A program made the translations under genes and the position numbers. This document shows, piece after piece, positions 1,237 to 15,451 of a stretch of DNA of 22,258 nucleotides (within the stretch, counting starts at the first letter, position 1; every line of letters begins with the position of its first letter). The notes under the pieces were generated by a model. It was not told where the DNA came from. It saw nothing but the letters and a program-made list of their open reading frames with translations, and searched no databases. Origin of the DNA: Promethearchaeota archaeon (GTDB lineage: Archaea; Asgardarchaeota; Odinarchaeia; Odinarchaeales; JBHLKK01); the NCBI GenBank assembly GCA_048939465.1, contig JBHLPL010000021.1:1-22258 (forward strand). Reading direction: 5' to 3'.

Positions 1237-1551
1237 TTAGATACGCTCGATCTTGAATATGACTGGTCTCAACCCATCGGTACAACAGCTCACTTCAGGA
1301 GCTTCCTTACCCCCTTCCTTTGAAAAATTCCCTCCATACCGCAACGTGGTCACTACTGTGAAAATGTCACTCCAAGCCCAGTAGCAGAATCCCTCTGGCA
1401 TCTCTCCATCATCCCCGACAATAAACTCTTGCCCCTCTTCAAATACGCTACAAGCTTCTGAAAACTTATTCAGAGGAGGACTATCACCGAATACATCCCT
1501 TGTATTCATCTTCTTTAGGACCGTTATCTTGACTTTGCTTTTCTCTGCCAT
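1237..1551 (-). CDS. TIGR04076 family protein (104 aa), copy 1
   Basis: KVKITVLKK...CSVFEEGQEF...MPEGFCYWAW...CCTDGLRPVIFKIERI. The start is set at ATG 1551 because the paralogue at 15020-15334 begins MAEK at the equivalent position. The 43-codon upstream extension in the ORF track runs into a mobile element. Confidence 0.85.
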   Translation of the reverse strand: MAEKSKVKITVLKKMNTRDVFGDSPPLNKFSEACSVFEEGQEFIVGDDGEMPEGFCYWAWSDIFTVVTTLRYGGNFSKEGGKEAPEVSCCTDGLRPVIFKIERI

Positions 1552-1636
1552 AAAATCGCCCACTTCCTCTTCTTTCATATATCTAAACCACCTCAAAGAG
1601 ACTCCTTCCTGGAGGGCGGAGAGGAATTGAGTGGTT

Positions 1637-1650
1637 CTTAAATACTTTCG
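1637..1650 (-). promoter_or_regulatory. BRE+TATA candidate (CGAAAGTATTTAAG) inside the element, facing the TIGR04076 gene
   Basis: Match to the archaeal BRE/TATA pattern about 85 nt upstream of ATG 1551. Confidence 0.5.
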
Positions 1651-1653
1651 TGG

Positions 1654-1661
1654 TATATAAG
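1654..1661 (+). promoter_or_regulatory. TATA box candidate (TATATAAG) for the putative omega-RNA
   Basis: About 25 nt upstream of the start of the GC-rich structured segment. Confidence 0.45.
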
Positions 1662-1682
1662 CTAGCGGGTCTAAAGGCACAC

Positions 1683-1898
1683 CTCTCTCTGATGTGGAAA
1701 CGGTTGATGACCTATGAAGACGGTGGGGTAAACCCTATAGCCCGACGCTACATGCGGATTACCGGGCTGGGGCGCTGTAAACTGTCCCATGATTTGGCGT
1801 GTGATGAAACCAAAGCCCAGAAGGGAATTGCGGTCAAGCATAGTCATAAGCTCCTTCTGCAAGGGAGGAGTAGTTTACATATCTGATACTGCCGGGAT
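1683..1898 (+). ncRNA. Putative TnpB omega-RNA (right-end RNA) scaffold plus about 20-nt guide
   Basis: Helices AGCCCG/CGGGCT (1739-1744/1763-1768), GGGGC/GTCCC (1769-1773/1784-1788), TTTGG/CCAAA (1793-1797/1810-1814) and CAGAAGG/CCTTCTG (1818-1824/1853-1859), ending at the IS right end. The 5' and 3' limits are estimates. Confidence 0.5.
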
Positions 1899-2855
1899 TA
1901 TTTCGTTCTGAAATATCTCCAATGGCCTGTACTGATCAAGAGGATATCGCATATTGAATATCGCATGATCAATGCCAATCTTGGCCAGTTCTTTCAAATG
2001 ATCAATGGTTTCCTCCGCCGTCTTCAGCAATCTGGATTTGTAAGTGACATCATCTCTTCCTTTCCATTCCATAGAGTCTGGCAATTCTGAGTGTCCCAAA
2101 AACACATTTCCCAGAGTTGTCTTTTCAATCTCATGATAAGGCCGTCCAACGTCCTCACAATGTTTTCTAAGAATATTCAATGCATTTTTGACAATCCCCA
2201 ATCCTGGACGTGTAAACAGATTACATCCGTCAGCATATTTGGCCACAAAACGAAGAGTCTTCTTTGGCCCCATTCCCCCAATTAGAATAGGTGGACGGGG
2301 CTTTTGGATGGGCTGGGGATTGCAGAGTGTTTCTTTCAGTTTATAGTGCTTACCCATAAATTCACCGTTGTTATCACTCCACATCTGCTTCGCAATCTGA
2401 AGGGATTCCTCCAGCATCTCGAAACGAATCTTCCAGGTATGAAACGGAATACCTAAGCCAATCGATTCTCTTTCAAACCAGCCAGCACCAATTCCGAAGT
2501 AAGCTCGTCCCCCAGACATTATGTCCAGAGTCGTTACAGTTTTAACCAAAACTCCTGGGTGTCTATAGATATTCCCTGTAACCAGCGTGCCCAGTTTGAC
2601 TCTTTTTGTTAATGCGGCAATGTAATTCAGCACGGAGTAGCCTTCGTGCATATCGTCTTCAGCCGGTCCTGTGATGTAATCTCCTGGTCTTTGTTTGAGA
2701 CCGTCACTTCTCCCCAGTTGAAAATAATGATCCATCACCCATATGCTGTAAAATCCCGCTTTTTCAGCCGTGATAGCAATGTCTCTTATGTCTTTGGCAA
2801 ACCCTTCAGGCCCACTAGGAAACGTAAAATTAGGAATCTGAAGTCCGACTTTCAT
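1875..2855 (-). CDS. LLM-class F420-dependent oxidoreductase (TIGR03560-like)
   Basis: MKVGLQIPNF, WVMDHYFQ, KLGTLVTGNIYRHPG, GRAYFGIGAGW and PILIGGMG motifs. The start is probably ATG 2855 (leaderless, TATA 23-30 nt upstream); ATG 2870 is an alternative. Confidence 0.9.
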   Translation of the reverse strand: MKVGLQIPNFTFPSGPEGFAKDIRDIAITAEKAGFYSIWVMDHYFQLGRSDGLKQRPGDYITGPAEDDMHEGYSVLNYIAALTKRVKLGTLVTGNIYRHPGVLVKTVTTLDIMSGGRAYFGIGAGWFERESIGLGIPFHTWKIRFEMLEESLQIAKQMWSDNNGEFMGKHYKLKETLCNPQPIQKPRPPILIGGMGPKKTLRFVAKYADGCNLFTRPGLGIVKNALNILRKHCEDVGRPYHEIEKTTLGNVFLGHSELPDSMEWKGRDDVTYKSRLLKTAEETIDHLKELAKIGIDHAIFNMRYPLDQYRPLEIFQNEIIPAVSDM

Positions 2856-2877
2856 GGGTCTGGGTATCATTTGGCAG

Positions 2878-9612: not shown

Positions 9613-9985
9613 AATCGCAGTCACCCCTGATAGGTATCAAGAGTTCATTCAATAAAAGGGCGACAGTCTGTCTTTCCAGAGTCATCTCAGTCTCATGCCG
9701 GCATTCTTCAATCAGTTTGGCTGTCAGCATTCCTTAAACGATATAAGGATATAGAAAAGGTAATGATTGTATGAAACTCCTCAATATGAGCTGCAAACCT
9801 ACAGTGTTCCTTAGCCATAGTTCAACTAAAGTCGTATCCAATGCAAGAGACTTCTCAGAATCTTAGCGTTGTCTGAAGCTCGACCATACTCTCGCCATCT
9901 CTTTACTATCCACCATTTACCATCTGCCATTACAGCCTGCCATCTAGTCTACAGATTTATATATAACACTGTTATTCCTTTAATC

Positions 9986-13825: not shown

Positions 13826-14905
13826 TCACTCTATTCCCATGCTTTTCCTCAATTCCATTACCTTTTTTGCTCTCTGTACGTATTTATCGATGGATTGTGC
13901 CGCTCTTCGGTCTGACCATCTCCTATACTCTTCGATGTAGATTGCCGATTCCTTACTCTTTGTTCTTCTGCCCGAGGTATAGTCGAATTGAAAAATCTTA
14001 AAGGGAAATATCTCCCCTGTGGCTCTATCAAGTGCTAACGGACCTCCTGACTTGCGCCACCCACGCCGATGATACCGCCACCATACACGCCGATGATACC
14101 GCCACCAACTAATTCGATCACCTGAAATGTATCTGTCTTCAACAAATACCCGAACACCAGTCATTTTGTCTACCGGTATTTCCCAGAAATGTCTCTTAGC
14201 CCTCTTAGGATTGAACCTGAACACCCTTTTTGAAGTGACAACAACGACTTCCTCCTCAACCGATAGATGATGAGGCCTCCGTCTGTAGAAGTCTGCAGAA
14301 TGATAAACCCACTCATCTAGGCGAAGCAGTTCTCTTACACGAGATGAAAATTCCTGTCTGAGCCTTTCCTGTTCCTCGTACATGTGTTCCTTGTACTCTT
14401 CGGAGATCTCATACTGCCCCGAATCTCCCTCTATGAACTCCAATCCGCAAGACTTGCAGGAACCTATCTCTCTCAAGGTTACACCAGAACCGCATATAGG
14501 ACATCTGTTGAATCCCAGAAAAGTGGAAGCTATATCCCCGCCAAAGTTCATATCAAATGAGGTCCTGATATCTTCTCTTAGAAGCTCTAAATCCTCTGGC
14601 AAAAGCTTTCTTCCCAGAGCTACCTCTACCTGAGCCGGATATTCTGCGATTTGCAGGGGACCTTCCTTTCTCCACCAAGCCTCAAATTCTTTCTTGGTAA
14701 GATTCAGATAGACTGTCTTTCTTTTGATCCTTGCGATCATACCTCTTGGTAGGATGAAGGTCCCTCTTTCTCCCACATAACTCTCCATGGCAATGTCATT
14801 GCCAACGATTTCGTCAACGATTCCTAGCTGTTTGCCATCTGAACTTTCTATCCCTTGGGTCTTCTCTGTTAGTTTCGAGATATCTTTCAACAACCCCCCC
14901 ACCAA
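13826..14905 (-). CDS. PRC-barrel-like + Zn-ribbon + PH-like domain protein, long paralogue
   Basis: N-terminal IESSDGKQLGIVDEI...FILP..MIARI...VYLNLTK is PRC-barrel-like, followed by CPICG...CKSCG and a PH-like region. The start is uncertain by a few codons. Confidence 0.75.
   Translation of the reverse strand: MVGGLLKDISKLTEKTQGIESSDGKQLGIVDEIVGNDIAMESYVGERGTFILPRGMIARIKRKTVYLNLTKKEFEAWWRKEGPLQIAEYPAQVEVALGRKLLPEDLELLREDIRTSFDMNFGGDIASTFLGFNRCPICGSGVTLREIGSCKSCGLEFIEGDSGQYEISEEYKEHMYEEQERLRQEFSSRVRELLRLDEWVYHSADFYRRRPHHLSVEEEVVVVTSKRVFRFNPKRAKRHFWEIPVDKMTGVRVFVEDRYISGDRISWWRYHRRVWWRYHRRGWRKSGGPLALDRATGEIFPFKIFQFDYTSGRRTKSKESAIYIEEYRRWSDRRAAQSIDKYVQRAKKVMELRKSMGIE
14062..14107. repeat. In-frame 24-bp-period tandem repeat (22 bp identical), encoding WWRYHRR twice on the minus strand
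   Basis: CACGCCGATGATACCGCCACCA at 14062-14083 and 14086-14107. Confidence 0.95.
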
Positions 14906-15019
14906 TACCCTAATTTCAGTTGTAACTAAGGAGTATTAAGCTTTATCTCACAGATTGAGCATCCCTGAGTAACCCGAAAAACCAGGACAATTCAAGAGCA
15001 ATTCCTCTTCAGGTTCTGG

Positions 15020-15334: not shown

Positions 15335-15451
15335 AGAATCACCGGTCTTTCTTTCATCTAGACAATAAATAGAACATAAATCTAATGGTATCCCCCCAAA
15401 AATTTAAAATATCAAATTGTAATGATTGCGCAGAAATGAGGTTTTCCCCTT

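What the first reader, a model, noticed from the sequence alone, without database searches (positions are those of the whole stretch)
1575..1884. 300-bp ORF-less IS200/IS605 element whose excision exactly rebuilds the host locus
Seen: two similar hairpins in direct orientation (1602-1621, 1851-1870), a right end ...TAAG-hairpin-TAGTTTAC, and TCAT just left of 1579. Removing 1579-1878 turns the LLM gene end from ...GAT ATG TAA into ...GAT ATA TGA, a stop at the same codon position. The paralogous TIGR04076 gene (15334) keeps the same upstream TTTCAT but has no element. Established: IS200/IS605 ends are subterminal hairpins with 4-nt guides that pair with cleavage tetranucleotides (IS608: AAAG/TTAC and GAAT/TCAA). 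By that pattern the left guide GAGA (1598-1601) predicts TCnT, which matches TCAT. The right pair TAAG/TTAC fits only two of three positions, suggesting slight decay. ATATCT occurs at both junctions, so the boundary is ambiguous by 6 nt. Inference: a minimal non-autonomous element mobilised in trans.
Basis: partly seen in the sequence, partly recalled or inferred. Interest (0 to 1): 0.75.

Follow-up and report, generated by a model that had tools for sequence, protein, structure and literature searches.

The report
Gene-less IS200/IS605 mini-transposon (PATE)
The 300 bases between two archaeal genes are a protein-less miniature of a TnpB-type "jumping gene" that landed on a stop codon; related genomes and a near-identical strain lack it, so the finding is real but of a kind already described.

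Summary

- **Copies.** Window 1579-1878 is one of about 18 full-length copies (72-85% identical) of a roughly 296-nt repeat in this genome. More copies occur in two genomes of the same genus.
- **Empty sites.** Both of those genomes, and a metagenome contig about 99% identical to the right flank, carry the locus without these exact 300 nt (TTTCAT|ATATCTG).
- **Architecture.** The family inserts right after TTCAT and ends in GTAGTTTAC. It has two same-strand GNRA hairpins, and the left cleavage site lies 19 nt from the hairpin foot, as in IS608.
- **Parent.** A full-length parent with the same ends carries only tnpB. The mini-element keeps the left end, a TATA-like box, two tnpB-derived pieces that form a covarying structured core (omegaRNA-like), and the right end.
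- **Proteins in trans.** One tnpA and one matching tnpB are present in the genome.
- **Class.** This is a PATE, a class described in haloarchaea and in Geobacillus, where PATEs "often encode omegaRNAs". The scan had already filed this same family from other parts of this genome.

The right guide/cleavage mismatch is family-wide, not decay. Expression, TnpA mobilisation and TnpB use are inferred.

The parts
1574..1578 (+). TTCAT, the target / transposon-adjacent motif (TAM). Its reverse complement ATGAA held the original TGA stop of the LLM gene.
   Evidence: The left flank of most copies is TTCAT or a close variant. Empty sites end in TTCAT, TTCAA or TTTAC at this position.
1579..1582 (+). Extra ATAT between the TAM and the canonical left end. 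It duplicates the first 4 nt of the right flank (1879-1882).
   Evidence: Standard copies read TTCAT|C-TAAACC. Empty alleles carry a single ATATC. A second case is the G000 C10 copy.
1583..1878 (+). Canonical 296-nt PATE body, CTAAACC...GTAGTTTAC.
   Evidence: Alignments of 15 and 31 copies, the nhmmer profile and filled/empty pairs.
1598..1601 (+). Left DNA guide GAGA, directly 5' of the left hairpin foot.
   Evidence: It covaries with the TAM across families: GAGA with TCAT, AAGA with TTAT. The position is as in IS608 (PMC3201880).
1602..1621 (+). Left subterminal hairpin: 8-bp stem with one mismatch in this copy, loop TGGA.
   Evidence: 88.4% of cells are paired and 3 pairs have compensatory changes in 31 copies (helix 2).
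1638..1644 (+). TTAAATA, a TATA-box-like motif. In the parent it lies about 30 nt upstream of the tnpB ATG.
   Evidence: It is conserved at the same place in all families and in the parent G001:C109. Its function is inferred.
1668..1870 (+). omegaRNA-like interior. It combines a mid-tnpB-derived piece (about 1668-1715), a variable spacer, and the last roughly 145 nt of tnpB plus the right end (about 1736-1870).
   Evidence: Homology to the parent tnpB. Conserved in other Asgard families at 71-88%. Structure is 89.9% paired against 36-45% in slid controls, with 23 pairs changed on both sides against 12.3 in shuffles.
1847..1850 (+). Right DNA guide TAAG.
   Evidence: It sits 5' of the right hairpin foot. 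It pairs with TTAC at 2 of 3 positions by the IS608 rule. It is shared by nearly all copies.
1851..1870 (+). Right subterminal hairpin: 8-bp stem, GCAA loop.
   Evidence: 92.1% of cells are paired and 3 pairs have compensatory changes (helix 12).
1874..1878 (+). TTTAC, the transposon-encoded motif at the right cleavage site. Its reverse complement supplies the present TAA stop of the LLM gene (1875-1877).
   Evidence: Conservation ends sharply after TTTAC. ORF 1875..2870.
1879..1898 (+). Right flank. It would be the guide part of a read-through omegaRNA and equals the sequence next to TTCAT in the empty allele.
   Evidence: Inferred from the IS200/IS605 TnpB model (PMC10055086). The empty allele is TTTCAT|ATATCTGATACT.
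1875..2870 (-). Host gene: F420-dependent LLM-class oxidoreductase (TIGR03560). Its last codon and stop were altered by the insertion.
1237..1551 (-). Host gene: TIGR04076 family protein, formerly about 25 nt downstream of the LLM stop.
   Evidence: The start MAEKSK is conserved in G001 and G002, where the upstream ATG is absent.

Best explanation
Window 1579-1878 is a non-autonomous IS200/IS605-family element (a PATE). It arose by internal deletion from a tnpB-only (IS1341-type) element.

Shown:
- It is a multi-copy mobile unit.
- It entered this locus after the lineage split from its two closest sequenced relatives, and it is still absent in a near-identical strain.
- It sits directly 3' of TTCAT, antisense to the host operon, on the stop codon of the LLM gene. 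Its right end (GTAAA on the gene strand) replaces the lost TGA with TAA in the same frame.

Inferred:
- A Y1 TnpA made elsewhere moves it as single-stranded DNA by peel-and-paste. TnpA would recognise the two same-strand hairpins, and the 4-nt DNA guides would pair with TTCAT (left) and TTTAC (right).
- Its TATA-like box drives a plus-strand RNA made of the retained TnpB guide-RNA scaffold, reading out over the right end.
- With TnpB from the full-length element, that RNA would cut the empty allele (TTCAT followed by ATATCTGATACT...). The filled copy would then be restored by recombination, as shown for bacterial ISGst elements.
For: Copies and boundaries:
- About 18 full copies in G000, plus copies in G001 and G002.
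- Sharp ends: C-TAAACC... on the left...GTAGTTTAC on the right.

Empty sites:
- This locus is empty in G001 and G002, with the same length once 300 nt are removed.
- Contigs in runs X1 and X7 join 1578 to 1879. X7 record 31 has 4 differences in 322 nt of the right flank.
- Nine filled/empty comparisons in all were read.

Parent and proteins:
- The G001:C109 parent has the same left end, a TATA-like box, a 380-aa TnpB (Cas12f1-like_TNB 4e-22, OrfB_IS605) and the same right end.
- G000's own copy of that tnpB is split over contigs C70 and C55, 82-83% identical.
- G000 has a Y1_Tnp tnpA at C105 (5e-37). Its element ends in ...GGGTGGAGTAGTTCAC.

Geometry and guides:
- The TAM lies 19 nt from the left hairpin foot, as in IS608.
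- Guide and TAM covary between families.

Interior:
- It is homologous to tnpB pieces.
- It has a conserved, covarying structure.
- It is conserved in other Asgard families.

Literature: PATEs are defined in PMC3119063. PATEs that 'often encode omegaRNAs' to be used in trans by TnpB are stated in PMC10055086.
Against: - No RNA data exist for this organism, so the promoter, the transcript and any guide function are untested.
- Only one tnpA was found in a 91%-complete assembly. Its own left end looks atypical, so trans-mobilisation by it is unproven.
- This copy has a mismatch in the left hairpin, and its TAM is 23 rather than 19 nt from the foot.
- The 4-nt ATAT duplication is not predicted by canonical peel-and-paste.
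- The right guide pairs with the right cleavage site at only 2 of 3 positions under the IS608 rule.
- The covariation support for the RNA structure is moderate, because the copies are related.
Confidence: 0.9

Rival explanations
1. It is a dead relic: a real PATE insertion that can no longer be excised or expressed. The presence/absence difference then reflects only one old insertion, not ongoing mobility or homing.
For: - Its closest copy in the genome is only 85% identical.
- The left hairpin has a mismatch and a non-GNRA loop.
- The TAM is displaced by 4 nt.
- There is a single tnpA in the assembly.
Against: - The ends, guides, TATA-like box and scaffold are all intact relative to the consensus.
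- An empty allele exists in a strain about 99% identical in the flank. That fits either recent insertion or recent precise excision.
- Meers et al. report that TnpA tolerates altered TAM-to-guide spacing.
Confidence: 0.25
2. The family is moved or copied by a route other than TnpA peel-and-paste. Candidates are recombination after TnpB cleavage, or an integration that uses a staggered double-strand cut. Such a route would explain the 4-nt duplications.
For: - Two of nine filled/empty comparisons show a 4-nt direct duplication of the nucleotides next to the TAM: window ATAT/ATAT, and C10 TCGT/TCGC sharing a derived G.
- tnpB-only parents far outnumber tnpA.
- Dyall-Smith et al. also noted mobility that is hard to reconcile with tnpA content.
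Against: - Seven of nine pairs are scarless and fall exactly after the TAM.
- The guide/TAM covariation and the IS608-like 19-nt geometry are the signature of TnpA recognition.
- TnpB cuts 15-21 bp from the TAM, not at the junction (established knowledge).
Confidence: 0.08
3. It is a host cis-regulatory leader or structured intergenic RNA of the LLM-TIGR04076 operon, not a mobile element.
For: - It lies between two co-oriented genes.
- On the gene strand its end reads GAGGTGGTTTAG, which resembles a ribosome-binding site.
- The interior has conserved structure.
Against: - It is absent from the same locus in both same-genus genomes and in a near-identical strain.
- About 18 copies sit in unrelated contexts.
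- It has the same ends as a tnpB element.
- The paralogous gene lacks it.
- There is no Rfam family match.
Confidence: 0.01

Closest known systems
PATEs (palindrome-associated transposable elements) of Haloquadratum walsbyi and other haloarchaea (Dyall-Smith et al. 2011, PMC3119063)
   Same: [quoted passage not shown]
- Near-terminal palindromes like those of IS605-type elements.
- A 4-5-nt targeting sequence at the 5' side.
- Strain-specific insertions.
- Origin by core deletion of tnpB elements, including some that keep C-terminal tnpB sequence.
- Roughly 50-bp 'terminal-only' forms made by deletion between the two hairpins. Here these are 47-nt forms, for example G000 C69:17413.
   Different: - A different phylum: Asgard according to earlier scan notes, not verified here.
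- A different sequence family and TAM (TTCAT).
- Two insertions here carry a 4-nt duplication, whereas PATEs are described as causing no target duplication.
ISGst2-type IS605 elements and their PATE-like derivatives in Geobacillus stearothermophilus (Meers et al. 2023, PMC10055086)
   Same: - TAM and TEM differ at positions 3 and 5 (here TTCAT and TTTAC).
- DNA guides covary with the TAM.
- tnpB-only elements and gene-less derivatives share ends and would be mobilised in trans by one tnpA.
- PATEs that carry omegaRNAs.
- The donor joint equals TAM plus right flank, which is the TnpB target.
   Different: - Nothing is tested experimentally here.
- The promoter is of archaeal TATA type.
- The scaffold keeps a second, mid-tnpB piece.
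- Insertions are strongly concentrated at gene starts and stops on the opposite strand.
IS608 of Helicobacter pylori (He et al. 2011, PMC3201880)
   Same: - Same-strand subterminal hairpins.
- The left cleavage site lies outside the element, 19 nt 5' of the hairpin foot.
- The right cleavage site lies inside the element, a few nt 3' of the hairpin.
- There are 4-nt guides 5' of each foot.
- The g1-c2, g2-c1, g4-c4 pairing fits the left end 3 of 3.
   Different: - IS608 carries tnpA and tnpB. This element carries neither.
- The right end fits the pairing rule at 2 of 3 positions.
- The right cleavage is 8 nt from the foot here, against 10 nt in IS608.

Membership tests
IS200/IS605 family (non-autonomous derivative) | Subterminal imperfect palindromes at both ends, on the same strand | tested here: met
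   Hairpins at 1602-1621 and 1851-1870. Across 31 copies, 88% and 92% of cells are paired, with compensatory changes.
IS200/IS605 family (non-autonomous derivative) | Insertion 3' of a fixed 4-5-nt target, with scarless empty sites and no target duplication | tested here: inconclusive
   Insertion after (T)TCAT is met in all nine filled/empty comparisons. Seven are scarless. The window copy and the C10 copy carry a 4-nt duplication. Removing exactly 300 nt restores the site.
IS200/IS605 family (non-autonomous derivative) | Cleavage sites recognised by 4-nt guides 5' of each hairpin foot (IS608 rule), with the left site 19 nt from the foot | tested here: met
   Left end: GAGA/TCAT fits 3 of 3. 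Sister families have AAGA/TTAT. The spacing is 19 nt in standard copies (rule). Right end: TAAG/TTAC fits 2 of 3, family-wide.
IS200/IS605 family (non-autonomous derivative) | A related autonomous or tnpB-bearing element with the same ends | tested here: met
   G001:C109 carries left end, tnpB (380 aa) and right end. The G000 copy is on C70+C55.
IS200/IS605 family (non-autonomous derivative) | A Y1 (HUH) TnpA available in trans and able to act on these ends | tested here: inconclusive
   One Y1_Tnp gene is present at G000 C105. Its element has a very similar right end. Activity on this element cannot be tested with these tools.
PATE (Dyall-Smith et al. 2011) | [quoted passage not shown] | tested here: met
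   The element is 296 nt. Open frames shift between copies because of indels, so none is conserved. The palindromes are shared with the tnpB parent. Only a 5-nt TAAAC/GTTTA inverted match exists at the tips.
Stand-alone omegaRNA (TnpB guide RNA) locus | Sequence homologous to the 3' end of tnpB plus the right end, with conserved secondary structure | tested here: met
   Homology to the parent. For structure: 89.9% paired, 23 pairs with changes on both sides against 12.3 +/- 2.6 in shuffles, 1 of 500 shuffles as high.
Stand-alone omegaRNA (TnpB guide RNA) locus | Transcribed, bound by TnpB, and guiding cleavage of TAM-flanked targets | not testable with these tools
   No RNA run holds this sequence.

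The most novel reading that the evidence does not exclude
The family may be built to land harmlessly in gene junctions on the opposite strand.

- Its target TTCAT is the reverse complement of ATGAA, which contains both ATG and TGA.
- Its right tip supplies TAA in the same frame as the lost TGA.
- Its left tip supplies GAGGTGGTTTAG, a ribosome-binding site with spacer, in front of the retained ATG.
- Some insertions, this one included, carry a 4-nt duplication. That points to a non-canonical boundary choice or integration step in archaeal IS200/IS605 elements.
Probability: 0.3. Interest if true: 0.5.

Novelty: new member of a known kind. Interest (0 to 1): 0.3.

Why it matters
It is a clean natural example, in an uncultured archaeon, of a gene-less IS200/IS605 element caught in both filled and empty states. 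That fixes its boundaries, target motif and donor joint to the base.

This gives a ready test set for archaeal TnpA and TnpB biochemistry: a TAM (TTCAT), a scaffold, a guide and a target. It also warns annotators that the last codon and stop of the LLM gene come from a transposon end.

The class itself, PATEs carrying omegaRNAs, is already published. The same family was already reported by this scan from other parts of the genome, so the general insight is small. Only the gene-junction docking statistics and the 4-nt duplications go beyond what the cited papers describe.

Tried and rejected
- **Rfam.** No family at gathering score on the whole window. Only chance-level hits at E up to 10 on 1540-1920.
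- **Expression.** No RNA holder was listed for the locus, so expression could not be examined.
- **Single-sequence folding.** Folding the two ends as DNA gave z about -1.4, which is not significant alone. Whole-alignment RNAalifold gave a weak, messy structure. Refolding only the transcribed part gave the structure that was then tested.
- **Alternative guide rule.** A c2-g3 rule would have made the right end fit 3 of 3. It was rejected because g3 is G in both the TCAT and the TTAT families, while g1 covaries.
- **Protein-coding reading.** Many copies have 90-108-codon stop-free frames on the minus strand. The frame shifts between copies at the variable spacer, so no protein is conserved.
- **G002's TTTAC as a footprint.** The idea that TTTAC at G002's empty site is a footprint of the element's right end was rejected, because G001 has TTCAA and the near-identical strain has TTCAT at that position.
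- **A recurrent 'CAT + 4 nt + C' variant.** This was tested. For C118 the 4 nt are host sequence, with the TAM mutated from TTCAT to TTTAT. Only C10 resembles the window.
- **Missing comparisons.** No usable empty sites were found for the C25 and C73 copies.
- **The ATAT duplication.** Capture of flank through an alternative TAM or TEM (Meers et al.) was considered. It does not explain why the extra nucleotides equal the new site's own downstream nucleotides.

Full report
**What is in the sequence.** The window has two minus-strand genes. One is a TIGR04076 family gene (1237-1551). The other is an F420-dependent LLM-class oxidoreductase (1875-2870, TIGR03560). About 320 nt lie between them.
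- TTCAT at 1574-1578.
- GAGA at 1598-1601, next to a hairpin at 1602-1621.
- TAAG at 1847-1850, next to a similar hairpin at 1851-1870 on the same strand.
- A terminal TAGTTTAC at 1871-1878.
- ATATCT at both junctions.

The LLM stop codon (TAA, 1875-1877) lies inside the terminal TTTAC. Rfam has no family for the region.

**It is a repeat family with sharp ends.**
- BLAST and a profile search of the window's own genome (1.96 Mb, 152 contigs, 91% complete) find 15 full-length copies at 72-85% identity, plus three more diverged ones.
- They also find internally deleted forms of about 100 nt and single-hairpin forms of 47 nt (left 5' part fused to right 3' part), and dozens of left ends from sister families.
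- In alignments, conservation starts at C/T-TAAACCACCTC and stops abruptly after GTAGTTTAC. The left flank is TTCAT in most copies.
- Folding energy of the window's hairpins alone is unremarkable. Across 31 copies from three genomes of this genus and one genome of another family in the phylum, both hairpins are 88-92% paired with compensatory changes.

**Empty sites.**
- Two genomes of the same genus (G001, G002) have the LLM and TIGR04076 genes adjoining, with exactly 300 nt fewer. G001 reads ...tttttcaa|atatctgatact and G002 reads ...ttttttac|atatctgatact. G000 reads ...tctttcat|[300 nt]|atatctgatact.
- In all three the LLM gene stops at the same codon position: G001 GAT ATT TGA, G002 GAT ATG TAA, G000 after removal GAT ATA TGA.
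- Logan contigs of public mangrove and sediment metagenomes add a closer witness. Runs X1 and X7 hold a contig that joins 1578 directly to 1879, with 5 ambiguous nt. The X7 contig has 4 differences in 322 nt of the right flank.
- Further filled/empty comparisons were read, nine in all counting this locus:
  - G002:C180 against G000 C31.
  - G001:C5 and G002:C57 against G000 C106.
  - Two G002:C30 copies against G000 C69.
  - G000 C118 against G001:C81.
  - G000 C61 against G001:C73.
  - G000 C23 against G001 and G002.
  - G000 C10 against G001 and G002.
- These show that the element proper begins with the C after TTCAT and ends with TTTAC.

**Parent and partner proteins.**
- G001 contig C109 carries a full-length relative. 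It reads TTTCAT|C-TGAGACTCC..., then the left hairpin, then TTAAATA, and about 30 nt later the ATG of a 380-aa TnpB (Cas12f1-like_TNB 4e-22, OrfB_IS605). The TnpB stop lies 15 nt before ...GGTAGTTTAC|.
- G000 has the same gene at 82-83% identity, split over the ends of contigs C70 (left end plus residues 1-303) and C55 (residues 279-380 plus right end).
- The mini-element's interior consists of two pieces of this tnpB. One comes from the middle (AAAGGCACACC...GTGGAAACGGTT.ATGAC). The other is the last roughly 145 nt. They are separated by a variable spacer.
- G000 also has one Y1 tnpA (Y1_Tnp 5e-37) followed by a 427-aa tnpB on C105. That element ends ...GGGTGGAGTAGTTCAC|, very like this family's right end. 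Its left end looks atypical and abuts a 47-nt mini-element.

**Test of the guide rule.**
- In IS608 the left cleavage site lies 19 nt 5' of the hairpin foot. It is read by a 4-nt guide just 5' of the foot (PMC3201880).
- In standard copies here the TAM also ends 19 nt from the foot.
- The guide GAGA fits TCAT at the three pairing positions. Sister families in the same genome have AAGA with TTAT, which is the change the g1-c2 pairing predicts.
- These families are few clades, so the covariation amounts to one or two events, not many.
- At the right end TAAG/TTAC fits two of three positions. This holds in nearly all copies (two carry AAAG or AAAA), in the parent, and in copies that differ in presence between genomes. 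It is the family's normal state, not decay.
- TAM and TEM differ at positions 3 and 5, as Meers et al. describe for ISGst elements.

**The interior as an RNA.**
- The segment from about 1668 to the right end is the best-conserved part. It is recognisable at 71-88% identity in genomes of other families of the phylum.
- A consensus structure for it, together with the two end hairpins, is 89.9% paired against 36-45% when partners are slid.
- It has 23 pairs with changes on both sides against 12.3 +/- 2.6 in shuffles (1 of 500 shuffles as high). One helix (GGGGCG/CGCCCC) has compensatory changes in five of six pairs.
- With the TATA-like box kept upstream, this fits a self-promoted omegaRNA. Its guide would be the right flank, and its target (TTCAT plus that flank) is exactly the empty allele.
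- All of this is inference. No RNA run holds the locus.

**Where the family lands.**
- TTCAT is the reverse complement of ATGAA.
- Of the 18 G000 copies, nine have that ATG opening at least 80 codons on the opposite strand. Among all 7,412 ATGAA sites of the genome the figure is 18.4%.
- Six have an opposite-strand frame of at least 80 codons that closes at the element's own TAA. The comparable figure is 2.5% of sites for the TGA.
- Four have both, against 0.36%.
- The window copy is of the stop-codon type. The insertion changed the last codon from ATA to ATG and the stop from TGA to TAA. It pushed the TIGR04076 gene 300 nt further from the LLM stop.
- The enrichment may reflect survival of harmless insertions, adaptation of the element's tips, or both. 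Earlier scan reports on other copies made the same point.

**The unexplained detail.**
- The window's insertion is 300 nt, not 296. ATAT (1579-1582) sits between TTCAT and the canonical first base, and it repeats the first four bases of the right flank. The empty alleles have one copy.
- The G000 C10 copy has the same layout: TTCAT + TCGT + element + TCGC... Its relatives read TTCAT|TTCC... and TTTGT|TCCC..., so the derived G is shared by both halves.
- Seven other comparisons are scarless.
- Canonical peel-and-paste makes no duplication.
- Flexible TAM/TEM spacing with capture of flank would give extra bases. It does not explain why they match the new site.
- I leave this open.

**Comparison with what is known.**
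- The element meets the definition of a PATE. This includes the roughly 50-bp terminal-only forms made by deletion between the two hairpins.
- It also matches the PATE-like, omegaRNA-bearing derivatives noted by Meers et al..
- Earlier follow-ups in this scan filed the same family from other contigs of this genome as PATEs with omegaRNA scaffolds. They called the organism an Asgard archaeon. I did not verify the taxonomy.

**Verdict.** The finding is a well-supported new member of a known kind.

Noticed in passing
window 1579-1582 and 1879-1882; G000 C10 about 14655-14970: Two of nine filled/empty comparisons show a 4-nt direct duplication of the bases next to the TAM: ATAT/ATAT in the window and TCGT/TCGC in C10. 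This is unexpected for IS200/IS605 elements, which are described as making no target duplication.
   Followed up: partly
G000 contigs (18 family copies): Insertions are concentrated at opposite-strand gene boundaries. Nine of 18 are at an ATG opening at least 80 codons, 6 of 18 close a frame of at least 80 codons with the element's own TAA, and 4 of 18 do both. For all ATGAA sites in the genome the figures are 18.4%, 2.5% and 0.36%. The left tip reads GAGGTGGTTTAG on the gene strand, which resembles a ribosome-binding site.
   Followed up: partly
G000 C69:17413, C138:78815, C48:18915, C23:14177, C25:4602; C84:8667-8774, C41:8642-8751: There are 47-nt single-hairpin forms (left 5' part fused to right 3' part) and forms of about 100 nt of the same family. 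They are probably deletions between the two direct-repeat hairpins. Metagenome contigs also show a 1623-to-1820 joint.
   Followed up: partly
G000 C139 about 9855-9880: A 24-nt remnant (CCAAACCA + GAGGAGCGGTTTAC) sits where G001:C10 and G002:C115 have full copies. Almost the whole element was deleted there.
   Followed up: no
G000, many contigs, e.g. C137:8591, C68:13243, C141:1449, C2:25966: Dozens of left ends belong to sister families with guide AAGA and target TTTAT or TTTAC. All have TTTAAATA at the same distance. One family (C2) has an intact 384-aa tnpB. TTTAT reverse-complements to ATAAA, which contains TAA, so these may dock at TAA stops.
   Followed up: no
G000 C105 (L029 990-2860): The only tnpA of the assembly lies in a tnpA-tnpB element. 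That element starts directly after the TTTAC of a 47-nt mini-element, so a right end may serve as a target for the next insertion. Its own left hairpin looks shortened.
   Followed up: partly
window 15351-15362: Upstream of the paralogous TIGR04076 gene, TTTCAT is followed by CTAGAC. This equals the first six bases of some copies' left end (for example the C27 copy). It may be chance, or a native ribosome-binding-site region that resembles the element tip.
   Followed up: no
31 copies, alignment A1: Most copies have 86-108-codon stop-free frames on the minus strand. The frame changes between copies at the variable spacer, so this looks like composition and conservation rather than a protein.
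   Followed up: partly
window 1584-1588 and 1873-1877: The element tips carry a 5-nt inverted match (TAAAC ... GTTTA). In the circular junction it would form GTTTAC-CTAAAC.
   Followed up: no
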